From: a virus
Lineage: Duplodnaviria; Heunggongvirae; Uroviricota; Caudoviricetes
Direction: 5' to 3' (one strand)
IMG/VR virus record: IMGVR_UViG_3300028985_000011
DNA length: 7,424 nt
In this document: one piece after another, positions 1-7,424 of the stretch
How the letters are laid out: every line of letters begins with the position of its first letter
Position numbering within the stretch: position 1 is the stretch's first letter
Notes under the pieces: generated by a model
The model's database searches: none
Told to the model about the DNA's origin: nothing
Seen by the model: the letters and a program-made list of their open reading frames with translations, nothing else
Made by a program: the position numbers and the translations under genes

Positions 1-56
1 CCCTGCCATTGCTGGCATTTTTAATCCGTTGGTATGGCGTTAATATGGCTGGCGGG

Positions 57-245
57 TTATCCAGCCGGTATTTCGTTATTCAGGTTCAGCGATACTTTTT
101 TTAACGGGAGGCATTCACCGGGGATTTTTTGTTCGTCCCTTACCTGAATGCAGGATGACTTACTGTCATAAATTCCGGTAATCACATTTTGTGGCTCACC
201 CGTTATAAGAAAAACGGTCATCACCAGTGCAAATGCTGAAGTCAC
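57..245 (-). CDS. ydfD: YdfD-like small protein (62 aa) with N-terminal hydrophobic segment; GTG start overlapping the upstream stop (GTGA)
   Basis: Minus-strand ORF MTSAFALVMTVFLITGEPQNV...; GGAG Shine-Dalgarno 7 nt upstream of GTG at 243-245; hydrophobic N-terminus (FALVMTVFLITG); position immediately after dicB-like gene as in Qin prophage. Alternative ATG start at 219-221. Symbol assigned by synteny and size, not by search. Confidence 0.5.
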   Translation of the reverse strand: MTSAFALVMTVFLITGEPQNVITGIYDSKSSCIQVRDEQKIPGECLPLKKVSLNLNNEIPAG

Positions 246-430
246 TGCTGTTCTCCGATAATACCAAGTTCAAGAAGGGCAATTCTGGAAAGTATGGAAT
301 TATCATTGAGAAGATAAGGTTCATATTTTCTCATCTTAATGGCATCTTCCGTAAACTCCCGGTTACTGAGCAGAACACCAATATCAAAACAACCTTCAGA
401 CGTATTAACGTTTGGTAATAACGTTTCCAT
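242..430 (-). CDS. dicB: DicB-like cell-division inhibitor (62 aa)
   Basis: ATG at 428-430 (minus) with GAGGA Shine-Dalgarno 7 nt upstream; N-terminus METLLPNVNTSEGCF.IGV...FTEDAI matches my recollection of E. coli DicB; C-terminal half looks divergent; lies downstream of DicF-like sRNA. The six-frame track extends this ORF to a GTG at 535, which I consider unlikely. Confidence 0.6.
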   Translation of the reverse strand: METLLPNVNTSEGCFDIGVLLSNREFTEDAIKMRKYEPYLLNDNSILSRIALLELGIIGEQQ

Positions 431-485
431 TATCGCGTCCTCAACAATGAATTTTGTGATGCGGTGCCTGGTGCCTCCAGGTGAC

Positions 486-506
486 GTTAACCAGTTAACA
501 ATTAAC
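486..506. repeat. Three tandem (G/A)TTAAC hexamers at about 8-bp spacing in the dicB-like 5' leader
   Basis: GTTAAC at 486-491 and 494-499, ATTAAC at 501-506; GTTAAC is self-complementary so the cluster can form alternative RNA or DNA hairpins; function unknown. Confidence 0.4.
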
Positions 507-599
507 GCCGGATACAGAGAATCCACCCATAACACTGTTTTTGGTTTTAACTGTTCCGCGTGCGCTCAGCCGCATTCACCACATCACAAAATTCACTTT

Positions 600-642
600 A
601 AAAAGGGCGGCAGAGCAGTCACGGAGTAAAACTGATACCGCC
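600..642 (-). terminator. Rho-independent terminator at the 3' end of the DicF-like RNA
   Basis: On minus strand GGCGG (plus 638-642) ... CCGCC (plus 606-610) followed by C then TTTTT (plus 604-600); inner CAGT/ACTG pairing possible within the loop. Confidence 0.5.
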
Positions 643-657
643 AAACGTCACCAGAAA
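600..657 (-). ncRNA. dicF: DicF-like small regulatory RNA with 3' intrinsic terminator
   Basis: Minus-strand sequence TTTCTGGTGACGTTTGGCGGTATCAGTTTTACTCCGTGACTGCTCTGCCGCCCTTTTT matches my recollection of E. coli DicF; ends in GC stem (plus 638-642 / 606-610) plus U5 tract (plus 600-604); located between the upstream ORFs and dicB-like gene as in Qin. Not verified by covariance model. Confidence 0.55.
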
Positions 658-962
658 ATTGATAACAGAGGGCGTTGCAGCGGGGTTGTCACTTAAGCGT
701 ATGGTCAACCTGACAACCCGGTGTCCTCAGCGGGGTAAGGAATAACCCCGCCATACTTACCGCCGCGCCATTTCGCGGATTGCCACAACCGGAAGCGCAC
801 GATCGAATTAAATTTAACGACGACCTATACAGAGAGACTAACTTCTCCGGGCGCTTTCGTGTTATGCCCTGACTTTTCAGGGATATATCCTTTTCAGTAA
901 ACTGTCAGTGCCGGATTCTTATCCGTGTCCGGCGCACGCACTCTACCTCACCTGTGAATAAA
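658..962 (-). other. Hairpin-rich untranslated region between upstream ORF and DicF-like RNA (probable precursor/processing region)
   Basis: No ORF of convincing size or RBS on either strand; 9-bp stem GGGTTGTCA (683-691) / TGACAACCC (711-719); stem GCGGGGT (730-736) / ACCCCGC (745-751); direct repeat CAGCGGGGT at 678-686 and 728-736; stem CCCTGA (867-872) / TCAGGG (877-882); palindrome GGATATATCC (881-890); stem GCCGGA (910-915) / TCCGGC (928-933). Confidence 0.4.
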
Positions 963-1301
963 TTAATGATTAATTGATATTTTGTTGTTTGATTCAACTT
1001 TCCCATCGGATGTGTGATGCTTTAAATCACAGGAATTAATACTGCTTGCTGTAAAATGATTTTCAAGGGGAGCTATTCGAATCCCTTTCTTTTTCATTAA
1101 CAAGCCAAATCCTTTATTAATGATGTCCATTAATTCCAGAAAGTATTTTTCATGTAAATCCTGGTTATCAGAGAGCTGCTTCTCTTCGTACAGCCCGATA
1201 AAGGCTCGGCGTACGTTACCGGATATATTGTCGATGGTTTCTTTTTCTACGGTACTCAGGTCAAGAGTCGCCAGTTGAGAGCGAACCACATTCGATGCCA
1301 T
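963..1301 (-). CDS. Hypothetical protein, AT-rich 3' half; true start may lie upstream inside the N-run
   Basis: Minus ORF open from the N-run to stop at 963-965 (ATG at 1299-1301 has AGGAA directly abutting, poor spacing; frame stays open upstream to 1319); GC content drops markedly toward 963; no family recognised. Confidence 0.5.
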   Translation of the reverse strand: MASNVVRSQLATLDLSTVEKETIDNISGNVRRAFIGLYEEKQLSDNQDLHEKYFLELMDIINKGFGLLMKKKGIRIAPLENHFTASSINSCDLKHHTSDGKVESNNKISINH

Positions 1302-1319
1302 TTCCTGGAATGGTACTGG

Positions 1320-1373
1320 NNNNNNNNNNNNNNNNNNNNNNNNNNNNNNNNNNNNNNNNNNNNNNNNNNNNNN
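1320..1373. other. Run of 54 undetermined bases (assembly gap or masked sequence)
   Basis: n characters from 1320 to 1373; flanking minus-strand ORFs are in different frames, so gene structure across it is unresolved. Confidence 1.
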
Positions 1374-1503
1374 AGCGACGCGCGCCAGCTTCGGTTTTAA
1401 ACGTTTTGCTTTTGGTATACGTCATGGCGGTGAATGTGCCGTCCTGGTTGGGGAACACACCACATACCAGAGATTCGCTGTTGCCAAGATCGATAGTATC
1501 CAT
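1374..1503 (-). CDS. Hypothetical small protein, first gene of the leftward operon (3' end hidden in N-run)
   Basis: ATG at 1501-1503 (minus) with GAGG Shine-Dalgarno 5 nt upstream; encodes MDTIDLGNSESLVCGVFPNQDGTFTAMTYTKSKTFKTEAGARR...; the track's TTG start at 1608 has no RBS and overlaps the predicted promoter; occupies the position of ydfA-like genes downstream of dicA in Qin. Confidence 0.45.
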
Positions 1504-1579
1504 GCTGACCTCATTACCCCTTAACGCCGGGTAGCGGAACTGTTTGCTGAGAACACCGTGCGGTGTCTTGATGGGTGGT

Positions 1580-1608
1580 AATTTAGTTTTCTCATGAATG
1601 TTGGTCAA
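1580..1608 (-). promoter_or_regulatory. Candidate leftward sigma70 promoter (dicB-operon / PL-like) with embedded operator-like motif
   Basis: On minus strand -35 TTGACC (plus 1603-1608), 17-nt spacer, -10 TAAATT (plus 1580-1585); spacer contains TGAGAAAACT (plus 1585-1594), the same core motif found at 1619-1631 and 2152-2164. Confidence 0.45.
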
Positions 1609-1616
1609 GCATTTTT

Positions 1617-1632
1617 AATGAGAAAACTCAAT
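1617..1632. promoter_or_regulatory. Operator-like near-palindrome AATGAGAAAACTCAAT (left copy)
   Basis: 13-nt identity TGAGAAAACTCAA with the site at 2152-2164; inverted arms TGAG/CTCA around AAAA; 11 bp upstream of the candidate -35. Confidence 0.45.
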
Positions 1633-1640
1633 ATTTAATG

Positions 1641-1672
1641 CAAAATAAAGCCAATACATTGAAATGTAAGGC
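1641..1672 (-). terminator. Possible weak intrinsic terminator downstream of the repressor gene
   Basis: On minus strand AAAGCC-TTACATTTCAATGTATT-GGCTTT hairpin (inner palindrome TACATTGAAATGTA at 1655-1668) followed by TTTATTTT; stem is AT-rich so strength is doubtful. Confidence 0.3.
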
Positions 1673-1692
1673 TTTAAAATTTGTGAAGGGGG

Positions 1693-2100
1693 TTACTGAT
1701 GTTTGTTACGTTTGCGAGCTTCTAGTAGCTCGGTGAATAGGCGATTAAAATTCTCAACGCGGGCACGGAGTTCGCTGATTTGTGCTTGCTGCTCTGATTT
1801 TGGAAGTGCGCGATACAATCGCAACATCTCCAACTCATCTTCCGATAAGTCTAAGGCGCTGTTGAGTGCTACTGGTGGATCTGGTGTTTTATCCTCGTCA
1901 CCAAACAGTATCCAAGTTGGTGAACATTGCAATACCTCAGCCAGGCGATGCAAATTTTGCCCGCGCGGGGCTGTATGGTCGCTTTCCCATAGTGAAATTG
2001 ATGAGCCAGATACGCCAGCGGCTTTGCTTAAATCGTTTTGACTTAAACCAACCTGTTTGCGTCTTTCTCTAATTCGTTGACCTAAAGTTTTCTCGTTCAT
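1693..2100 (-). CDS. dicA: DicA-family HTH (XRE-type) prophage repressor, 135 aa
   Basis: N-terminal HTH (QRIRERRKQVGLSQNDLSKAAGVSGSSISLWE) and the motif LQCSPTWILFGDEDK that I recognise from E. coli DicA (also 135 aa); ATG at 2098-2100 with no obvious Shine-Dalgarno; divergent from a Cro-like gene. Confidence 0.9.
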   Translation of the reverse strand: MNEKTLGQRIRERRKQVGLSQNDLSKAAGVSGSSISLWESDHTAPRGQNLHRLAEVLQCSPTWILFGDEDKTPDPPVALNSALDLSEDELEMLRLYRALPKSEQQAQISELRARVENFNRLFTELLEARKRNKHQ

Positions 2101-2121
2101 ATTTAGATATCTTAATAACCC

Positions 2122-2151
2122 TTGACTTGAGATTCCTTGAATGGTTACTAT
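2122..2151 (+). promoter_or_regulatory. Candidate rightward sigma70 promoter (PR-like) for the dicC-like operon
   Basis: -35 TTGACT (2122-2127), 18-nt spacer, -10 TACTAT (2146-2151); about 27 nt upstream of the dicC-like ATG; CTTGA direct repeats at 2121, 2126, 2136. Confidence 0.5.
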
Positions 2152-2165
2152 TGAGAAAACTCAAC
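2150..2165. promoter_or_regulatory. Operator-like palindrome ATTGAGAAAACTCAAC (right copy)
   Basis: Perfect inverted repeat TTGAG-AAAA-CTCAA (2151-2164) overlapping the -10 and predicted start site of the rightward promoter; 13-nt identity with 1619-1631. Confidence 0.5.
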
Positions 2166-2177
2166 TTTGGAGGGGTG

Positions 2178-2405
2178 ATGTTTAAATCAGACGTAATTAA
2201 TTTTTATGGGACGAAAGCCAAAGTAGCGAAAGCTGCTGGTGTTGATCCATCTGCTGTTTCTCAATGGGGGGAACTGGTTCCTGAAGGTCGCGCGATGCGC
2301 CTGCAAGAGGCATCCGGCGGGGAACTTCAGTACGACCCCAAAGTTTATGACGAATATCGTAAGGCAAAGCGGGCGGGGCGGTTGAACAATGAAAATCACC
2401 CCTGA
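2178..2405 (+). CDS. dicC: DicC/Cro-like small DNA-binding regulator, 76 aa
   Basis: ATG at 2178 preceded by GGAGGGG (2169-2175); product MFKSDVINFYGTKAKVAKAAGVDPSAVSQW...; same length as E. coli DicC and divergent from the dicA-like gene; the upstream extension to 2127 in the track lacks an RBS and overlaps the promoter. Confidence 0.8.
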   Translation: MFKSDVINFYGTKAKVAKAAGVDPSAVSQWGELVPEGRAMRLQEASGGELQYDPKVYDEYRKAKRAGRLNNENHP

Positions 2406-2940
2406 ACAGGTTTGTGAGGCTCTGGATGCCTGGGTATGTCGACCAGGAATGACACAGGAGCAAGCGACGATATTAATCACGGAAGCATTCTGGGCTCTGA
2501 AAGAACGCCCGAACATCGATGTTCAACGCGTCACGTTTAATGATGGCGAGGTTGATCAACGGGCGCTGGGCGTTAACCGGGTGAAGATATTCGAACGCTG
2601 GAAAGCTATCGACACCAGGGATAAGCGGAAAAAATTCACGGCGCTGATTCCGGCAATTATGGAGGCTATCCGAATTAGTGATTTCAGGTTGTATCGTGAG
2701 ATCAGTGATGGAAAAAGCATTACGTACATGATCGCCGGATTAAACAAAGAATATGGCGATGTGGTGGAGTCCGGGCTGCTTTTTGCGGATCCAGCTGTTG
2801 TGGAACGTGAGACTGACGAGCTTATAGAAAAAGCTATTGCTTTCAAGCATGCGTATCGTCAGCAATATCAATATTACTTTGCAGATAAACAAATGTCTGC
2901 CAGGGGTTTGTATGAGTATCGATGCACTACGATGGGCTAA
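2389..2940 (+). CDS. YdaT-like protein (CII-position regulator/toxin family), 183 aa
   Basis: ORF MKITPEQVCEALDAW...; third gene of the rightward operon as in Rac-type racR-ydaS-ydaT arrangements; start overlaps dicC-like stop by 17 nt; family assignment from memory only. Confidence 0.7.
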   Translation: MKITPEQVCEALDAWVCRPGMTQEQATILITEAFWALKERPNIDVQRVTFNDGEVDQRALGVNRVKIFERWKAIDTRDKRKKFTALIPAIMEAIRISDFRLYREISDGKSITYMIAGLNKEYGDVVESGLLFADPAVVERETDELIEKAIAFKHAYRQQYQYYFADKQMSARGLYEYRCTTMG

Positions 2941-3952
2941 AAAGGTGAAAACCGGCAGTTCATCCAGTAAGTCTGTATTGACCTGGCTTGCTGATATGTG
3001 CGGTGCCGATTTGTGTGCATACCCGTCTGTATCTGCACTGGCAGAAGTAACGGAACTAAACAAAAAGACTGTGCAGGACAGCTTACGACACCTGATGGAG
3101 ATTGGGTTAATTGTTGATACCGGTGAGAGAAAAGGCAGAACAAAGCAAATTGTGGTGTACCGACTTATCGGTGTAGAAGAAAGTGTTGCCGAGCCTGAAT
3201 ACACCCAAAAACGGGAGTCTTTAAAGGTGGGTAAAATTGGTGCTGTTAATAAAAACAGTACCGAAAATGGTTATGTTTCAGCACAAAACAGACCCAAAAA
3301 CGGAACTCTTAGCTGCATGGAAAATAACCAAAGACACCCAAATTTTCCATCAAAGACACCCAAAAACGGATCACGGAACCCAAAGGAACCCAAAGATCTA
3401 AACCCCACACATAACGCACGCGAGAGTGCTCCGACCAGTGAGCAGGAAGTTTTGTCGTTACAGGCAGCACCCCTTGTATTCCTGGATGGCCTGAGCGAAC
3501 CCATCGGAAAATTTCCGATGACCGATAGCTGGTATCCGTCACGGGATTTTCGACGACGGGCTGCGTTGTGGGGGATGGCTTTGCCGGAGACAGAATTTAC
3601 ACCTGCTGAACTTGCCGCCTTCCGGGACTACTGGGCAGCGGAGGGGAAAGTGTTTACTCAGATTCAGTGGGAGCAGAAATTCGCCCGTCACGTAAATCAC
3701 GTCAGGGCGCAGGTTAAACCAGTCAGCAAGGGGGTAAACCATGCAGCAGCACCAGGTGGCACCGCATCACGGGCAGTTCAGGAAATTCGGGCAGCACGTG
3801 AGCAGTGGGAACGTGAAAACGGATTTATCAGCGACGGAAACGGTCTGGAAGCTGTGGGAACTCATGGGGGAGGTTTATTCGAACCGCTGGACCCAGAAGA
3901 ACGGGGCCGCACCTTCGAAGCTCTGGATTGCACAGATTGGCGCGATGACTGA
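2912..3952 (+). CDS. Replication initiation protein (lambda-O-position): N-terminal HTH DNA-binding domain, low-complexity linker, C-terminal DnaT-like domain
   Basis: ATG at 2912 with AGGGG 5 nt upstream (track start at 2837 is TTG without RBS); N-terminal LTWLADMCGADLCAYPSVSALAEVTELNKKTVQDSLRHLMEIGLI resembles replication-initiator HTH; C-terminal WYPSRDFRRRAALWGMALPE...FRDYWAAEG resembles DnaT-type domain; iteron-like repeats inside. Confidence 0.8.
   Translation: MSIDALRWAKKVKTGSSSSKSVLTWLADMCGADLCAYPSVSALAEVTELNKKTVQDSLRHLMEIGLIVDTGERKGRTKQIVVYRLIGVEESVAEPEYTQKRESLKVGKIGAVNKNSTENGYVSAQNRPKNGTLSCMENNQRHPNFPSKTPKNGSRNPKEPKDLNPTHNARESAPTSEQEVLSLQAAPLVFLDGLSEPIGKFPMTDSWYPSRDFRRRAALWGMALPETEFTPAELAAFRDYWAAEGKVFTQIQWEQKFARHVNHVRAQVKPVSKGVNHAAAPGGTASRAVQEIRAAREQWERENGFISDGNGLEAVGTHGGGLFEPLDPEERGRTFEALDCTDWRDD
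3290..3396. repeat. Iteron-like repeat array inside the initiator gene (candidate replication origin)
   Basis: Core CCCAAA five times (3293, 3337, 3359, 3379, 3389); 12-mer CCCAAAAACGGA at 3293-3304 and 3359-3370; 14-mer CAAAGACACCCAAA at 3329-3342 and 3351-3364 (22 bp apart); tandem GAACCCAAAG at 3376-3385 and 3386-3395; AT-rich tract 3240-3290 just upstream. Confidence 0.5.
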
Positions 3953-4406
3953 GCAGCAAATCCGACAGGTCTGCCGCCAGTGCATGGACCGCTGCCGGGC
4001 GGGTGAAACATGGCCTCCGGACCTGGCTGAGTTTGTGGCGCTGATTTCAGAAAGCGGGGCCAATCCATTTGGCCTGACGGTGGATGCTGTGATGGAGGAG
4101 TACCGCCGCTGGCGTGATGAGTCCTGGCGATATGACGGAAGCGACAAATATCCGTGGCCTCAGCCTGTGCTGTACCACATCTGCCTCGAAATGCGTACCA
4201 GAGGGATTGAGCGCCAGATGACGCAGGGTGAGTTAAAACGACTTGCGGAACGGCAACTGACGAAATGGGCAAAGCATGTTGGTAACGGGATGAGTGTTCC
4301 GCCAGTGCGACGACAACTGGAAGGGGCGAAACACCCGCAAGGGCCAACGCCAATTGAACGGCTGAAACAGGAATACGAACGCCGGAAGGCAGCTGGTTTT
4401 ATTTGA
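3741..4406 (+). CDS. Lambda-P-like replication protein (helicase loader), 221 aa
   Basis: Strong RBS AAGGGGG (3728-3734) 6 nt before ATG 3741; internal regions MTEQQIRQV, WPPDLAEFVALI, YPWPQPVLYHICLEM align by eye with lambda P; overlaps the 3' end of the initiator gene by 212 nt in another frame (alternative starts GTG 3813 or ATG 3864). Confidence 0.7.
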   Translation: MQQHQVAPHHGQFRKFGQHVSSGNVKTDLSATETVWKLWELMGEVYSNRWTQKNGAAPSKLWIAQIGAMTEQQIRQVCRQCMDRCRAGETWPPDLAEFVALISESGANPFGLTVDAVMEEYRRWRDESWRYDGSDKYPWPQPVLYHICLEMRTRGIERQMTQGELKRLAERQLTKWAKHVGNGMSVPPVRRQLEGAKHPQGPTPIERLKQEYERRKAAGFI

Positions 4407-4439
4407 ATCTGAGAAACGATTTTGTCGGAGGAAATTTTA

Positions 4440-5210
4440 ATGGAAACCGTATTTGACGCACTGAAAGCAATGGGAAAAGCCACATCGGTAGAACTGGCCG
4501 CGCGACTTGATATCAGTCGTGAAGAGGTTCTCAACGAGCTGTGGGAACTCAAAAGAAATGGCGTCGTTGATAAAACTGGTCACACCTGGTTTCTGGCTGG
4601 CGAAGGTGAATCCCGGGTAACCGAAGAGCGGCCAGTAAAATCTGAAGCACAGGATATGCTGACCGGGGAGGTCGAACAAAAAGTTACCGCAGACATGATG
4701 ATTGAGTTTATCGGTCAGGATGGTGCTAAAACGTGTGAGGAACTGGCGGGTAAGTTCGGCGTCAGTACTCGCAAGGTTGCCTCCACGCTGGCGGTGGTAA
4801 CCGCAATGGGGCGGCTGGCACGCGTTAATCAGAACGGTAAATTTCGTTACTGCATGCCGGGCGATAATTTACCAGCAGAGCCGAAAGCCGCGCTGGTAAC
4901 GGAAAGTGATGGTAAGGCCTTTCCTCAGCCAGCAGGTGCTGCGTTACCAGTCCGGGAAGCCGCAACACAGGAAGAAATTAAAACAGAAACTGTGGCGGAC
5001 ATTGTGCAGCCGTTGCCATCGTTTACCGAAACGCAAGCAGATGAGCTGATTTTTCCGTCCCTTCGCAGGGCAAACCTGGCGCTGCGCAGGGCGAAAAGTG
5101 ATGTTCAGAAGTGGGAGCGAGTCTGCGCCGCGCTGCGGGAGCTGAACAAGCACCGGGATATTGTTCGACAGATTACTGATTCTTCCCGCCGTGTTGTATC
5201 GGAAAAGTGA
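4440..5210 (+). CDS. Hypothetical protein with two tandem winged-helix-like segments (phage nin-region family, possibly DUF1627-like)
   Basis: ATG 4440 with GGAGG (4427-4431) 8 nt upstream; the track start at 4422 is TTG; segments [30 protein letters not shown] and [33 protein letters not shown] look like wH/HTH units. Confidence 0.8.
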
Positions 5211-5225
5211 TTGCCGGAGGCGCTT

Positions 5226-5618
5226 ATGGCAAAAGTATTTACACCAGAAGAGCGGGAAGAAGTGAAGGCGCGCATTGTGGAATTCGTGCGCCTGAGCGGA
5301 CGAGAAACTTTTCGACAACTGGCAGATAAAACGGGTGTCAGTAAGACCGCTATTCGTCGTTTATCTGGTGCGCTTGCGGCCAGTGGTGATGTCTGGCTCT
5401 CTGGTTGCGGGGTATTTCCATCAGAGCAGGCGTATCGCGTATGGCGTAAGACACCGGAGAAGGCTGCTGACCCGACACTGATTCGAAAGTTACCTGACGG
5501 AGAAATACGTCGTTACAACAGACGGCAGAACATAATTTGTCGTGAGTGCCGCCAGAGCGAAGTTATGCAGCGTGTGCTGGCGTTCTATCGGGGAAACTTT
5601 CAGGAGGTGATGGAGTGA
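5226..5618 (+). CDS. Hypothetical winged-helix-like protein, 130 aa (paralogous to N-terminal part of the preceding gene)
   Basis: ATG 5226 with GGAGG (5216-5220) 5 nt upstream; segment ETFRQLADKTGVSKTAIRRLSGALAASGDV resembles the wH units of the upstream protein. Confidence 0.8.
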   Translation: MAKVFTPEEREEVKARIVEFVRLSGRETFRQLADKTGVSKTAIRRLSGALAASGDVWLSGCGVFPSEQAYRVWRKTPEKAADPTLIRKLPDGEIRRYNRRQNIICRECRQSEVMQRVLAFYRGNFQEVME

Positions 5619-5911
5619 GGGTCAGAGTTTATATTGCCGGTCCAATGACGGGATATGAAAATTTCAACCGTGAGGCGTTTCACAAGGCGGAAGAGGAACT
5701 GAAACGGGAAGGGCATACCGTCTTAAACCCGGCAGTACTTCCGGACGGGCTGACACAGCCGCACTACATGGATATTTGCATGGCAATGATTCGTTGTGTG
5801 GATGCGATTTACATGCTGAATGGCTGGCAGCGGTCAGCGGGCGCTAAGGCAGAGCTGGCACTGGCGGAGAAACTGGGGCATGCAGTGATTTATCAGGAGG
5901 TGGCTCAATGA
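5615..5911 (+). CDS. Small nucleoside 2-deoxyribosyltransferase-like protein (DUF4406-like), 98 aa
   Basis: GTG start at 5615 overlapping the upstream stop (GTGA) with AGGAGG (5602-5607) 7 nt upstream; motif VYIAGPMTG...NF...F...LNPA...GW..S.GA.AELALA typical of the NDT-like Rossmann family; the track's longer ORF from 5546 overlaps the upstream gene and is not favoured. Confidence 0.75.
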   Translation: MRVRVYIAGPMTGYENFNREAFHKAEEELKREGHTVLNPAVLPDGLTQPHYMDICMAMIRCVDAIYMLNGWQRSAGAKAELALAEKLGHAVIYQEVAQ

Positions 5912-6345
5912 GAGAGGTTAACTATGAGGCGCTTCGTGAGGCAGCACAAAACTATCAGTCGACGCTGGCGTGGTATCAGGCTATCCCGGACAGCCCAAAT
6001 GCTGAACGGGATTGTGATGCGGCTCTTGCTGCGTTTAAGCGTCACATCCGTCATCGGGAAGCGGATATTATCGCTGATTTGCTGGATGGACTGGAAGAAG
6101 CAAAATCACAACTCAAAGAGCAGCGTGAGTATTACGAAGGCGTTATCTCTGATGGGAGCAAGCGTATTGCTGAACTGGAAGCGCGGGAAGTTCAATTACC
6201 GACTCGCTACGACCTTCGATATGGACACCCGATAAATGCAGATGAGCGACAAGTCATGATACCTAAAGAAAATGGCAGTTGGCTTTACCTGATTGACCTA
6301 GAACACGCATTACGCGTCGCTGACATTCGCATCAAAGGAGAGTGA
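5908..6345 (+). CDS. Hypothetical protein, 145 aa, predicted helical/coiled-coil
   Basis: ATG 5908 overlapping the upstream stop (ATGA), AGGAGG (5895-5900) 7 nt upstream; no family recognised. Confidence 0.8.
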   Translation: MREVNYEALREAAQNYQSTLAWYQAIPDSPNAERDCDAALAAFKRHIRHREADIIADLLDGLEEAKSQLKEQREYYEGVISDGSKRIAELEAREVQLPTRYDLRYGHPINADERQVMIPKENGSWLYLIDLEHALRVADIRIKGE

Positions 6346-6346
6346 T

Positions 6347-6610
6347 ATGGCAACTTTGACAAAAAAAGAACAAGCATGGTTGAGCGAATTACAGGACGTT
6401 CTTGATCGCTGCCCATCACCGAAAAAAATTGGTTTTTACACCATTGGCGATAAAAGCATTTACCTGTATGACCTGCGCCGCATGGATGAAATCATGGAGG
6501 CTCTTGATAATCGTTCGTCAATGGATTGGTGTGTTGCTGTTCATGATATGAATGCCGGATTTGATGAAAAGATTTTATTCCCCTCATCAGTTGAAAGTAC
6601 AGCAGGATAA
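6347..6610 (+). CDS. Hypothetical protein, 87 aa
   Basis: ATG 6347 one nt after the upstream stop; GGAG (6337-6340) upstream; no family recognised. Confidence 0.75.
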   Translation: MATLTKKEQAWLSELQDVLDRCPSPKKIGFYTIGDKSIYLYDLRRMDEIMEALDNRSSMDWCVAVHDMNAGFDEKILFPSSVESTAG

Positions 6611-6620
6611 GGACTAACAC

Positions 6621-7382
6621 ATGACCACTATTACCAAAGAGCGACTGCTGACAATCAGGCAGTGGCGCGAAACATACGGACCTGGTAGCAACGTTGTACT
6701 GCCAGCAGAAGAAGCGGAAGAACTGGCACGAATTGCTCTGGCATCGCTGGAAGCAGAGCCGATAGGTTTCCGTTGCAGGCGCAATGATAACCTTGGTGAT
6801 TGGAGTTACGTATATCATCGAGAGCCAGATGATTTTGAGCGCAAACATTTAGTGATAGAGGGCATTTACGCCGCCCCTCCAGCACCGGTAGTGCCTGAAG
6901 AAGCAACTCCGGAAAACGTAGAAATGCTCTCTGGCTATGTTTCAACGTACAAATTAACCGATAGCGAGCGCGATATTGCTGCCGAAATATGGAACGCCTG
7001 CCGCGCCGCCATGCTTCAGTCCGGAAACTTTCGGGAAAACAAGAATTCGTCAACCAATAATTTTCGGGAAATCGCGGAAACGTCAACCAACTATCCGGCA
7101 ATTCCTAGTGAGGTGTTGTCCGCAATCCTGAAGGTTGCCAGGATTCGTGCCGATTTCGATGATTTTGACGGTGACAGGCGAGGTATCGGTGATTGTCTGG
7201 ATGAGGCTGAGCAAGAGCTTATCGTTACCATTAACAAATATGCCAGTCAGTTGGCAGCAGAACCTATAGCGCCTAATGACGTTCGAGAGCAGACAGCCAT
7301 TCCACAAGTTCCGGTAACTCCGGATGGTTGGATAAGCTGTAGTGAGCGAATGCCGGACGACAGGCAGGAGGTGAATCAATGA
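6621..7382 (+). CDS. Hypothetical protein, 253 aa, with internal 11-residue tandem repeat
   Basis: ATG 6621 with AGGA 7 nt upstream; contains DNA-level tandem repeat at 7028-7090; C-terminal DGWISCSERMPDD; no family assigned with confidence. Confidence 0.8.
   Translation: MTTITKERLLTIRQWRETYGPGSNVVLPAEEAEELARIALASLEAEPIGFRCRRNDNLGDWSYVYHREPDDFERKHLVIEGIYAAPPAPVVPEEATPENVEMLSGYVSTYKLTDSERDIAAEIWNACRAAMLQSGNFRENKNSSTNNFREIAETSTNYPAIPSEVLSAILKVARIRADFDDFDGDRRGIGDCLDEAEQELIVTINKYASQLAAEPIAPNDVREQTAIPQVPVTPDGWISCSERMPDDRQEVNQ
7028..7090. repeat. Imperfect 30-bp tandem direct repeat (33-bp period) inside the 253-aa gene
   Basis: CTTTCGGGAAAACAAGAATTCGTCAACCAA (7028-7057) versus TTTTCGGGAAATCGCGGAAACGTCAACCAA (7061-7090), about 22 of 30 identical; (C)GGAAA-type motif occurs four times in 7022-7080. 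Confidence 0.6.
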
Positions 7383-7424
7383 GCTGGCCTGATGCAATCG
7401 TAACTCTGGGGGTGGTCTTCGCAG
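7379..7424 (+). CDS. 5' end of a further gene (partial, runs off the window); N-terminus hydrophobic
   Basis: ATG 7379 overlapping upstream stop (ATGA) with AGGAGG (7366-7371) 7 nt upstream; begins MSWPDAIVTLGVVFA. Confidence 0.5.
   Translation, partial: MSWPDAIVTLGVVFA

What the first reader, a model, noticed from the sequence alone, without database searches (positions are those of the whole stretch)
5226..7424. Translationally coupled block of six uncharacterised genes
Consecutive genes are joined by GTGA, ATGA, 1-nt and ATGA junctions, each with its own Shine-Dalgarno sequence, indicating stoichiometric co-expression. None has an assignable function from sequence alone; such early nin-like blocks are where lambdoid phages keep accessory recombination, host-takeover and counter-defence genes, so this is the most likely place in the window for an undescribed function.
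Basis: partly seen in the sequence, partly recalled or inferred. Interest (0 to 1): 0.45.

Follow-up and report, generated by a model that had tools for sequence, protein, structure and literature searches.

The report
Mosaic accessory genes in E. coli prophage
This is an ordinary run of small accessory genes in the early operon of an E. coli lambda-like prophage, stitched together from two different prophages; all five annotated genes belong to common, already catalogued families, and the only unlisted item is a conserved 27-codon membrane-peptide gene at its end.

Summary
Six co-directional ORFs lie at 5226-7424. They are joined by GTGA, ATGA, a 1-nt spacer, a 10-nt spacer and ATGA, and each has a Shine-Dalgarno site.

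Four of the six fall in named families:
- g1: DUF977, the lambda Ren family.
- g2: DUF4406, with a nucleoside deoxyribosyltransferase/MilB/Rcl fold.
- g3: Ea22-like.
- g5: an EaA/DUF551-family protein whose DUF551 domain has been deleted in frame.
- g4: an 87-aa Enterobacterales phage orphan with no recognisable fold.
- g6: a 27-codon ORF that annotation pipelines miss.

The six genes are not a conserved unit. Window 1-6342 matches one prophage and 6091-7424 matches the int-proximal "ea" region of another. The crossover lies inside g3, between 6158 and 6251. None of 5,426 complete E. coli genomes has the block contiguous, but several independent draft and metagenome contigs do, followed by xis-int-mlrA.

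Tight start/stop overlaps are the norm in lambdoid early operons. They indicate promoter-less cassettes read in series, not stoichiometric subunits.

g6 is the most interesting item. It is always 27 codons, is found in temperate and virulent Escherichia phages, and shows a coding-type substitution pattern.

Overall this is ordinary and already catalogued, with biochemical functions mostly unknown.

The parts
4440..5210 (+). DUF1627 gene. It lies outside the finding but belongs to the same conserved module, DUF1627-DUF977-DUF4406-Ead. It has two winged-helix-like regions.
   Evidence: PF07789 E=3e-98, with a weak phrog_142 hit. It is annotated at the equivalent position in L001, L002 and L006.
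5226..5618 (+). g1: 130-aa DUF977 protein, a homologue of lambda Ren. It has an N-terminal winged HTH and a conserved C-terminal CRQS..M.RVLA.Y motif.
   Evidence: PF06163 E=2.1e-41. phrog_142 'Ren-like exclusion protein' E=1.2e-43. BLASTP against lambda Ren E=4e-9.
5601..5618 (+). Junction cassette CAGGAGGTG-N5-GTGA: the SD for g2 sits inside the last codons of g1 (..QEVME*).
5615..5911 (+). g2: 98-aa DUF4406 protein, a minimal domain with the nucleoside 2-deoxyribosyltransferase/MilB/Rcl (TIR-related) fold. E80, in an S-x-G-x-x-x-E motif, is invariant.
5894..5911 (+). Junction cassette CAGGAGGTG-N5-ATGA (g2 tail ..QEVAQ*).
5908..6345 (+). g3: 145-aa Ead/Ea22-like protein. It shares the N-terminal motif and coiled coil with lambda Ea22 but has a different C-terminal domain. 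The gene is a recombinant.
   Evidence: PF13935 46.6 bits against a cutoff of 27. BLASTP against lambda Ea22: 39% identity, E=6e-17, ending near residue 108.
6158..6251 (.). Interval that contains the crossover between the two parental prophage types. The sequence here is identical in both.
   Evidence: The window carries the L001 alleles through 6157 and the L003 alleles from 6252. BLAST extents are 1-6342 against L001 and 6091-7424 against L003.
6347..6610 (+). g4: 87-aa orphan (phrog_1714) with a small alpha/beta fold and the invariant motif RCPSPxK.G...Y.D.R. It is found in Enterobacterales prophages.
6621..7382 (+). g5: 253-aa EaA/DUF551-family protein in which the DUF551 domain has been removed in frame.
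   Evidence: Only DUF551 profile positions 1-16 of 68 are present. Full-length relatives are 297-315 aa. Relative to L007, 189 nt are replaced by 6 nt. The exact 253-aa allele is on 861 contigs.
7358..7363 (+). Six bases that stand in place of the 189 nt encoding the DUF551 core in L007 (4738-4926).
7365..7382 (+). Junction cassette CAGGAGGTG-N5-ATGA (g5 tail ..QEVNQ*).
7379..7424 (+). g6: the first 15 codons of a conserved 27-codon ORF (MSWPDAIVTLGVVFAAAFVVFSICRWG), a predicted single-pass membrane peptide. RefSeq does not annotate it.
   Evidence: Full ORF in L003 8080-8163. tblastn finds 70 phage records, all near full length. The ORF has the same length and the same ATGA overlap in 933W, Av-05, 18-1-2, ArgO145 and PhiR49_2. 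At least 120 IMG/VR loci carry it. Codon-position diversity is 0.19/0.12/0.34.

Best explanation
The interval is the promoter-distal part of the early rightward (pR-type) operon of a Rac/Qin-like lambdoid prophage of E. coli. It starts just after the O-like, P-like and DUF1627 genes. It is a chain of independent, promoter-less accessory cassettes, not one machine.

**How the block arose.** Two modules were joined by homologous recombination inside the Ea22-like gene, with the crossover between 6158 and 6251.
- Module A is DUF1627, DUF977 (Ren-like), DUF4406 and the 5' part of Ead. It is the ren/nin-proximal set of one prophage.
- Module B is the 3' part of Ead, the 87-aa orphan, the EaA/DUF551-deleted gene and the 27-codon ORF. 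It is the int-proximal 'ea' (exo-xis-like) set of a second prophage integrated at mlrA. In contigs with the same join it continues into DUF4222, xis, int and mlrA.

**How it is expressed (inferred).** One read-through transcript carries all six genes. Each cistron has its own SD buried in the last codons of the preceding gene, three times as CAGGAGGTG-N5-RTGA. Terminating ribosomes can therefore re-initiate. This keeps small cassettes expressed wherever recombination drops them. It does not imply fixed stoichiometry.

**Likely roles, gene by gene (all inferred from homology or fold).**
- g1 acts like lambda Ren: a small winged-helix protein tied to the replication module and the Rex phenotype.
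- g2 is a minimal N-glycosidase/transferase of the deoxyribosyltransferase/MilB/Rcl fold. It would act on a nucleoside or nucleotide, with invariant E80 as the candidate nucleophile.
- g3 acts like Ea22: an oligomeric coiled-coil protein that biases development towards lysogeny.
- g4 is a small alpha/beta protein of unknown partner.
- g5 is an EaA-like protein that has lost its DUF551 domain.
- g6 is a 27-residue single-pass inner-membrane peptide.
For: **Identity and context**
- Window 1-6342 is 99.9% identical to a prophage of strain AR_0013. Its gene order is cI, cro, YdaT, DnaT-like, P, DUF1627, DUF977, DUF4406, Ead ... hokD, RusA, Q.
- Window 6091-7424 is 99.4% identical to the Ead, 87-aa, DUF551, DUF4222, xis, int, mlrA end of another prophage in the same strain.
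- The SNP pattern places a single crossover at 6158-6251. GC content falls from about 0.53 to about 0.42 across the join.

**Reality of the join**
- Contigs from independent NCBI, Logan and ENA assemblies carry DUF977, DUF4406, Ead(145 aa) and the 87-aa gene contiguously. In several they are followed by DUF4222, xis, int and mlrA.
- L150 matches window 4454-7034 at 99.1%.

**Independence of the cassettes**
- The block 5400-7100 is contiguous in 0 of 5,426 complete genomes, although pieces of it occur in 2,387.
- The g1+g2 pair is found at 80% coverage or better in 480 genomes. DUF4406 also occurs behind other HTH genes.
- g4-g6 occur in 22 genomes at 80% coverage or better, while pieces occur in 2,947.

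**Expression signals:**

**Family and fold assignments:**

**Literature**
- Ea22 is pro-lysogenic, tetrameric and has a mosaic C-terminal domain (PMC10834534, PMC7093339).
- Ren is transcribed with O and P, is described as likely involved in replication, and gave two-hybrid contacts with Rex proteins (bioRxiv 10.1101/2021.04.19.439022).

**g6 as a coding gene:**
Against: - No expression or activity data exist for any of these six products. Every role is by homology or fold.
- g1 is separated from the P-like gene by DUF1627, unlike lambda ren, and is only 29% identical to Ren over 90 residues.
- g2 fails the Pfam NDT threshold (14.4 bits against 28.8). It is about 40 residues shorter than characterised NDTs. 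E80 was placed by motif only, not by residue-level superposition.
- The C-terminal domain of g3 differs from that of lambda Ea22, which is the part thought to contact a host partner.
- Translational coupling itself was not tested.
- No complete genome shows the join, so a lineage-specific rearrangement cannot be fully separated from a recurrent assembly path.
Confidence: 0.78

Rival explanations
1. The six genes form one dedicated, stoichiometrically co-expressed system, for example a multi-subunit host-takeover or counter-defence complex. This is what the first reader implied.
For: The start/stop overlaps are tight and every junction has a strong SD. No internal promoter or terminator rises above chance. 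The arrangement is reproduced in several independent contigs.
Against: The block is contiguous in 0 of 5,426 complete genomes. In complete genomes its two halves sit in different prophages and different operons. A crossover lies inside g3. Each gene is found with many other neighbours. g5 is a deletion allele. No PADLOC hit was found. The same overlap style is generic in the lambda nin region.
Confidence: 0.05
2. The contiguity of the two halves is an assembly artefact: a chimeric join across the roughly 250-bp Ead repeat shared by two prophages of one strain. On this view the 'block' does not exist in any cell.
For: Both halves are present separately, at 99.4-100% identity, in strain AR_0013. 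The parental sequences share a 94-bp identical core. No complete (mostly long-read) genome has the join. The window also carries an N run at 1320-1373.
Against: The same join occurs in contigs from independent projects and assemblers. These include 22-41 kb NCBI contigs that run on into mlrA and host genes, Logan contigs, and an ENA contig named k111_4856. If k111 denotes a k-mer of 111, it exceeds the 94-bp identical core; this reading of the name is my inference. Reads of 150 nt would span the core. The two Ead copies are inverted relative to each other in AR_0013. A simple inversion between the prophages would therefore give exactly this junction.
Confidence: 0.08
3. g2 (DUF4406) is a counter-defence enzyme, not a nucleotide-pool enzyme. 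On this view it is a minimal TIR/NDT-fold hydrolase that destroys NAD-derived or nucleotide immune signals, or depletes a defence cofactor.
Against: The best matches are to N-glycosidases of nucleosides and nucleotides, not to TIR NADases. PHROG and Pfam place it with deoxyribosyltransferases. No literature or PADLOC link was found. No genetic association with a defence system was examined.
Confidence: 0.1
4. The 27-codon g6 ORF is not a gene. Its conservation would reflect a DNA- or RNA-level element, such as a recombination linker or a regulatory RNA at the end of DUF551-type genes.
For: Neither RefSeq nor most GenBank phage records annotate it. dN/dS on the unconstrained codons is only moderately low, at 0.44. 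Opposite-strand frames are also open in most copies.
Against: It is exactly 27 codons in all 130 copies and 53 DNA variants, although the search pattern itself fixed the length and the filter removed copies with internal stops, so this point carries ascertainment bias. The unbiased tblastn search also gave near-full-length matches in all 70 records. An SD lies 5-8 nt upstream in every context, although the upstream genes differ (tails QEVNQ*, VEDILR*, KKGMNQ*). At least 8 different downstream contexts begin right after the stop. Diversity by codon position is 0.19/0.12/0.34 on unconstrained codons. The hydrophobic core is kept in 33 peptide variants. There is no stable RNA structure, z=+1.9. 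At 84 nt it lies below the 90-nt minimum gene length of common gene callers (the 90-nt Prodigal figure is from my own knowledge), which would explain the missing annotation.
Confidence: 0.2

Closest known systems
Lambda ren (Ren protein; Pfam DUF977, PHROG 142)
   Same: g1 shares significant sequence similarity with it (E=4e-9 directly; 1e-43 to the PHROG that carries the Ren name). The shared parts are the winged-helix region and the C-terminal CRQS..M.RVLA.Y motif. It lies in the same operon, downstream of the replication genes.
   Different: g1 is 130 aa against 96 aa, with an insertion in the middle. A DUF1627 gene lies between the P-like gene and g1. The Rex-related phenotype was not tested, and this prophage shows no rexAB in the window.
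Nucleoside 2-deoxyribosyltransferases, MilB CMP hydrolase and Rcl/DNPH1 (the N-deoxyribosyltransferase-like fold, related to TIR)
   Different: g2 has only 98 residues, against 125-165 for the matched chains. It falls below the Pfam NDT threshold (14.4 bits against 28.8) and has no sequence-level PDB hit. Its substrate is unknown. It belongs to its own family, DUF4406, for which the paper library holds no functional study.
Lambda Ea22 and the Stx-phage Ea22 variants (Ead_Ea22 family; exo-xis region)
   Same: g3 shares the N-terminal INY.ALREAA motif and the coiled-coil segment EQREYYEGVISDGSKRIA.LE (39% identity, E=6e-17). The C-terminal domains of the family are mosaic, as described in PMC10834534.
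   Different: g3 is shorter, at 145 aa against 182 aa. Its C-terminal domain has no similarity to the solved lambda Ea22 CTD. In this window it sits on the pR side, after the replication genes, and is itself a recombinant.
P22 EaA / DUF551-domain proteins of lambdoid 'ea' regions (for example the Ea22_V2 C-terminus and K-12 YfdS, as cited in PMC10834534)
   Same: The first 236 residues of g5 are 97-100% identical to 297-315-aa DUF551 proteins. GenBank records call the homologues EaA.
   Different: The defining DUF551 domain is missing. Only 16 of 68 profile positions remain, because 189 nt are replaced by 6 nt in frame.
Lambda nin region (ninB-ninI)
   Same: The position is the same, between the replication genes and (in the parental prophage) RusA and Q. 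The style is the same too, with 4-nt start/stop overlaps.
   Different: None of the six products hits a Nin family in Pfam, PHROGs or NCBIfam. The second half of the block comes from an int-proximal module.

Membership tests
Lambda Ren family (DUF977 / PHROG 142) | Sequence match to the family profile above the curated threshold, and to lambda Ren itself | tested here: met
   PF06163 scores 141.6 bits against a cutoff of 22.1. phrog_142 E=1.2e-43. BLASTP against lambda Ren E=4e-9.
Lambda Ren family (DUF977 / PHROG 142) | Located in the pR operon directly after the replication genes | tested here: met
   g1 follows DnaT-like O, P and DUF1627 on the same strand. One extra gene (DUF1627) intervenes compared with lambda.
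Lambda Ren family (DUF977 / PHROG 142) | Confers resistance to Rex exclusion, or interacts with the Rex and replication proteins | not testable with these tools
   Only literature on lambda itself is available.
Nucleoside 2-deoxyribosyltransferase family (Pfam PF05014) | Profile match above the gathering score | tested here: not met
   14.4 bits against a cutoff of 28.8, E=0.042. g2 is a member of DUF4406 instead (129.7 bits).
N-deoxyribosyltransferase-like fold superfamily (NDT / MilB / Rcl / TIR) | Three-layer alpha/beta fold with a parallel sheet that superposes on NDT, MilB and Rcl | tested here: met
N-deoxyribosyltransferase-like fold superfamily (NDT / MilB / Rcl / TIR) | Catalytic glutamate nucleophile at the conserved position | tested here: inconclusive
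   E80 is invariant in 36 sequences, within S74-x-G76-A77-x-A79-E80. Its equivalence to the NDT nucleophile is inferred from the motif. No residue-level superposition was available.
Ead/Ea22 family | Pfam PF13935 above threshold, and similarity to the N-terminus and coiled coil of lambda Ea22 | tested here: met
   46.6 bits against a cutoff of 27. 39% identity, E=6e-17.
Ead/Ea22 family | Lambda-type C-terminal domain (the solved NMR domain) | tested here: not met
   The alignment with lambda Ea22 ends near residue 108. A PDB sequence search gives no hit to an Ea22 CTD.
DUF551 domain proteins | A complete DUF551 domain (68 profile positions) | tested here: not met
   Only profile positions 1-16 are matched. 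The 189 nt that encode the rest are absent relative to L007.
Lambda Nin proteins (NinB-NinI) | A profile match of any product to a Nin family | tested here: not met
   No Nin family appears among the Pfam, PHROG or NCBIfam hits.
Known anti-phage defence system components (PADLOC) | A profile match to a defence-system protein | tested here: not met
   g1-g6 give no hit, apart from one sub-threshold HTH match for g1 (E=0.008).
Small single-pass membrane proteins of phages (g6) | Conserved ORF with an SD, a coding substitution pattern and a hydrophobic core of about 19 residues | tested here: met
   Translation and membrane location are not testable here.

The most novel reading that the evidence does not exclude
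The truncated sixth ORF is a genuine gene that annotation systematically misses. It encodes a 27-residue single-pass membrane peptide with the consensus M[ST]WP[DE]A....G.........[FY]S[IV]CRW[GR]. It travels as its own cassette behind different upstream genes, in temperate lambdoid and Stx phages and also in virulent Vequintavirinae phages of Escherichia. By analogy with other small membrane proteins, it would act by binding and modulating a host inner-membrane protein, for example in exclusion, transport or signalling.
Probability: 0.4. Interest if true: 0.4.

Novelty: already known. Interest (0 to 1): 0.2.

Why it matters
As a block it matters little. Its five annotated genes are present, at or near identity, in RefSeq E. 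coli genomes, and all but g4 carry family names there. The tight gene packing is the normal grammar of lambdoid early operons.

Three things are useful.

1. The window is a clean example of inter-prophage recombination through a shared Ea22-like gene. The join connects a pR replication/ren-type module to an ea-xis-int module. This warns against reading gene adjacency in such regions as functional linkage.

2. DUF4406 is a very common, uncharacterised minimal enzyme fold with an invariant candidate nucleophile. The g1+g2 query gave a match in 1,493 of 5,426 complete genomes. It is a cheap biochemical target.

3. A conserved 27-codon ORF escapes annotation. At 84 nt it falls below the usual gene-caller length limit. 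It deserves a ribosome-profiling or tagging test.

Tried and rejected
- **NCBIfam.** No informative hit for any of the six products.
- **PADLOC.** No defence-system hit.
- **PDB sequence searches.** Nothing meaningful for g1, g2 (single sequence and profile), g3 or g5.
- **g4 family search.** An exhaustive HMMER search gave only 138 clusters. The few longer members carry no Pfam domain, and the one with TPR hits is a spurious repeat match. No function could be read from fusions.
- **MucB_RseB hit in g3.** The Pfam hit (24.0 bits against a cutoff of 22.3, residues 65-117) falls in the coiled-coil/linker segment. I treat it as a compositional match. It probably explains why PGAP names some homologues 'RseB domain-containing'.
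- **Cluster of the g6 variant.** The 90% cluster that holds one g6 variant also holds 121-aa DUF551 proteins. I checked for a Rosetta-stone fusion, and those proteins do not contain the peptide, so the clustering is an artefact.
- **Literature.** Searches for DUF4406 and DUF977 returned only incidental mentions, and the g6 peptide strings returned nothing.
- **Rfam.** Nothing was found inside the finding.
- **RNA structure at g6.** The region is less structured than shuffled controls.


Full report
**1. What the window is**

The window is part of a lambdoid (Rac/Qin-like) prophage of E. coli. It matches 4,990 of 5,426 complete E. coli genomes in pieces.

Window 1-6342 is 99.9% identical to a prophage of strain AR_0013. 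RefSeq annotates that prophage as follows, in window coordinates:
- DUF1482 and dicB on the minus strand
- a cI-like repressor (1693-2100, minus strand)
- cro (2178-2405)
- a YdaT-family protein (2389-2940)
- a DnaT-like O protein (2912-3952)
- replication protein P (3945-4406)
- DUF1627 (4440-5210)
- DUF977, DUF4406 and an Ead/Ea22-like gene

Further on, that prophage carries hokD, rem, DUF968, RusA and an antiterminator. The finding therefore starts where lambda has ren and nin.

**2. Checking the observation**

Six co-directional ORFs are present:
- g1 5226-5618
- g2 5615-5911 (GTG start)
- g3 5908-6345
- g4 6347-6610
- g5 6621-7382
- g6 from 7379 to the window end

Every start is preceded by an SD-like sequence. 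Anti-SD duplex energies run from -5.9 kcal/mol (g5, the weakest) to -11.6 kcal/mol.

Three junctions are the same cassette, CAGGAGGTG-N5-RTGA. The SD is read as Gln-Glu-Val in the tail of the upstream protein (..QEVME*..QEVAQ*..QEVNQ*). The 9-mer occurs three times in the window against 0.04 expected, always at a junction.

Promoter-like and terminator-like sites inside the block do not exceed the shuffle expectation. Rfam finds nothing there.

The g1-g5 boundaries equal the PGAP calls in the matching genomes.

It is also the ordinary style of lambdoid early operons. In lambda, P/ren, ninB/C, ninC/D, ninE/F, ninG/H and ninI/Q all overlap by 4 nt.

**3. The block is a mosaic, not a unit**

Window 6091-7424 is 99.4% identical to a different prophage of the same strain AR_0013, integrated at mlrA. 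There the order is Ead (178 aa), the 87-aa gene, the 253-aa gene, DUF4222, a 44-aa gene, xis, int and mlrA. That is the int-proximal 'ea' (exo-xis-like) end of a leftward operon. Strain NR301 has the same arrangement.

The two matches overlap at 6091-6342, inside g3. The window carries the first prophage's alleles up to 6157 and the second's from 6252. A single crossover therefore lies in the 94-bp identical stretch 6158-6251. GC content drops from about 0.53 to about 0.42 across the join.

Distribution across complete genomes:
- A query spanning the join (5400-7100) is contiguous in 0 of 5,426 genomes, although pieces occur in 2,387.
- The g1+g2 pair occurs at 80% coverage or better in 480 genomes. 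DUF4406 also follows other HTH genes.
- g4-g6 occur at 80% coverage or better in 22 genomes.

**4. Is the join real?**

I looked up the exact 145-aa g3 protein. It is on contigs from independent NCBI, Logan and ENA assemblies. Those contigs carry DUF1627, DUF977, DUF4406, Ead(145) and the 87-aa gene contiguously. In the longer ones (22-41 kb) this is followed by DUF4222, xis, int, mlrA and host genes.

BLAST shows these contigs are collinear with the window from 1374 to 6761. One Logan contig (L150) is collinear over 4454-7034 at 99.1%.

The two Ead copies are in inverted orientation in AR_0013. An inversion between the two prophages would give exactly this junction; that step is inference.

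I consider the join real (about 0.9). An assembly chimera remains a minor rival, because no complete genome shows the join.

The consequence is that in this arrangement the 'nin-like' block runs into xis-int and the chromosome, not into Q and the late genes.

**5. The genes one by one**

*g1 (130 aa).*
- It is DUF977 (PF06163, E=2e-41) and phrog_142 'Ren-like exclusion protein' (E=1e-43).
- It aligns with lambda Ren directly (E=4e-9), including the C-terminal ECRQS..M.RVLA.Y motif.
- Weak HTH-family hits cover its N-terminus.
- In lambda, ren is transcribed with O and P. A preprint describes it as likely involved in replication and reports two-hybrid contacts with Rex proteins (10.1101/2021.04.19.439022).

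*g2 (98 aa).*
- It is DUF4406 (E=6e-38) and phrog_355 'nucleoside 2-deoxyribosyltransferase' (E=3e-48).
- It has no sequence-level PDB relative.
- An AlphaFold model built from 36 homologues has pLDDT 91.
- Invariant residues include Y6, G9, N18, R19, D53, W71, S74, G76 and E80. I infer, from the S-x-G-x-x-x-E motif only, that E80 is the nucleophile equivalent.
- It fails the Pfam NDT threshold. It is therefore a fold relative, not a family member.
- The paper library holds no functional study of DUF4406.
- A 2025 preprint shows that phage NDTs can serve to manipulate nucleotide pools.

*g3 (145 aa).*
- It is Ead/Ea22-like (PF13935, 46.6 bits).
- It is 39% identical to lambda Ea22 over the N-terminal motif and the coiled coil (E=6e-17). 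Its C-terminal domain is different.
- Ea22 is reported as tetrameric and pro-lysogenic, with mosaic C-terminal domains (PMC10834534, PMC7093339).

*g4 (87 aa).*
- It has no Pfam, NCBIfam or PADLOC hit. It matches only phrog_1714, of unknown function.
- Homologues are nearly all 82-93 aa and come from Enterobacterales. The invariant motif is RCPSPxK.G...Y.D.R.
- The family is small: 138 clusters among 1.84 billion representatives.

*g5 (253 aa).*
- It is the N-terminal 236 residues of EaA/DUF551-family proteins of 297-315 aa.
- Relative to a full-length gene (L007), 189 nt encoding the DUF551 core are replaced by 6 nt in frame. The original ..QEVNQ* tail and the downstream junction are kept.
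- This deletion allele is common: the exact protein is on 861 contigs.

**6. g6, the sixth 'gene'**

In full it is a 27-codon ORF, MSWPDAIVTLGVVFAAAFVVFSICRWG. RefSeq does not annotate it.

*Occurrence.*
- tblastn against 50,697 phage records finds 70 records. All align over at least 96% of the peptide, at 52-100% identity.
- In 933W, ArgO145 and PhiR49_2, and in the virulent Vequintavirinae phages Av-05 and 18-1-2, the ORF is again exactly 27 codons.
- In each it starts with an ATGA overlap on the stop of an annotated upstream gene, and it is itself unannotated.
- The upstream genes differ (tails QEVNQ*, EQKVNQ*, KKGMNQ*, VEDILR*), and so do the downstream sequences.
The 130 copies across all loci held then (IMG/VR hits plus earlier phage loci) give 53 DNA and 33 peptide variants, several classes of upstream tail and at least 8 downstream contexts.

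*Evidence that it codes for a protein.*
- On the codons the pattern left free, nucleotide diversity is 0.19, 0.12 and 0.34 at codon positions 1, 2 and 3, and dN/dS is 0.44.
- The hydrophobic core is kept in all variants.
- The RNA is not structured, z=+1.9.

*Taxonomic range and annotation status.*
- Across one genome per species, the pattern occurs only in Escherichia and Shigella. Two further hits are on contigs under 450 bp and are probably contaminants.
- One variant is annotated as 'hypothetical protein' in a few GenBank records.
- At 84 nt it lies below the 90-nt minimum of Prodigal. That figure comes from my own knowledge.

I rate it a real small membrane-protein gene at roughly 0.6-0.8, with function unknown. 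The pattern scan is ascertainment-biased for length and for the conserved positions. The tblastn result and the free-codon statistics are not.

**7. How the block most likely works**

*Shown:* gene order, junction anatomy, mosaic origin, and family and fold assignments.

*Inferred:* a single early transcript is read through all the cistrons. Re-initiation at SD-containing overlaps keeps promoter-less cassettes expressed wherever recombination places them. Each product then acts on its own:
- g1: Ren-like, replication- or Rex-associated
- g2: a nucleoside/nucleotide N-glycosidase or transferase
- g3: an Ea22-like modulator that favours lysogeny
- g4 and g5: unknown
- g6: a membrane peptide

The stereotyped CAGGAGGTG-N5-RTGA joints may also serve as microhomology for cassette exchange. 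That is speculation.

**8. Verdict**

The five annotated genes are already in RefSeq at or near identity, and four of them sit in named families, two of which have literature on their lambda prototypes. The block is not a conserved functional unit, and its tight packing is generic.

Novelty: already known. Interest: low (0.2).

The residual value lies in three places: the unannotated 27-codon ORF, the uncharacterised but very common DUF4406 enzyme fold, and the clean example of inter-prophage recombination through an Ea22-like gene.

Noticed in passing
window 605-656 (-), with 242-430 (-) and 57-245 (-): A DicF sRNA gene (Rfam RF00039, 76.7 bits, full length) lies upstream of a dicB-like ORF and a DUF1482 ORF. 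This is the Qin-type division-inhibition cassette on the leftward operon.
   Followed up: partly
window 1320-1373: A run of 54 N. The matching stretch of strain AR_0013 is 52 nt (L001 7320-7371). It spans the junction of a 124-aa hypothetical gene and a DUF1391 gene. It may be a masked stretch or a scaffold gap.
   Followed up: no
L011 1501-1584 and L014 1501-1584 (phages Av-05 and 18-1-2): The 27-codon g6-type ORF also occurs, unannotated, in virulent Vequintavirinae phages. There it follows an EaA-like gene with the same ATGA overlap. The cassette therefore moves between temperate and virulent Escherichia phages.
   Followed up: partly
L143 5001-9006 and L144 5001-9006: In contigs with the same join as the window, the pR-side genes run straight into DUF4222, xis, int and then the host gene mlrA. 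The hybrid element therefore has an integrase on its right flank and no Q or late genes after the block. This is consistent with an inversion between two resident prophages.
   Followed up: partly
window 5908-6345 (g3 residues 65-117): Pfam MucB_RseB scores just above its gathering cutoff (24.0 against 22.3 bits) on the coiled-coil/linker part. RefSeq names some homologues 'sigma-E factor regulatory protein RseB domain-containing protein'. This is probably a misleading annotation.
   Followed up: partly
window 2389-2940 and 2912-3952: A YdaT 'toxin' family gene occupies the position of lambda cII. It overlaps the start of a DnaT-like replication initiator by 29 nt. The P-like gene (3945-4406) has almost no SD (-3.1 kcal/mol) and overlaps the O-like gene by 8 nt.
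   Followed up: no
window 4440-5210: The DUF1627 protein has two winged-helix-like regions, and the second gives a weak match to the Ren-like PHROG 142. DUF1627 and DUF977 may therefore be distant paralogues sitting side by side.
   Followed up: no
L144 5714-6226, L146 831-1343, L148 2106-2618: In sister contigs the gene in the g5 position is 170 aa, not 253 aa, and it diverges from the window after about 6761. This position carries several different internal-deletion or replacement alleles.
   Followed up: no
protein cluster of P0361: The 90%-identity cluster holding a 27-aa g6 variant also lists 121-aa DUF551 proteins that do not contain the peptide. This is a clustering artefact for very short sequences, not a fusion.
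   Followed up: yes
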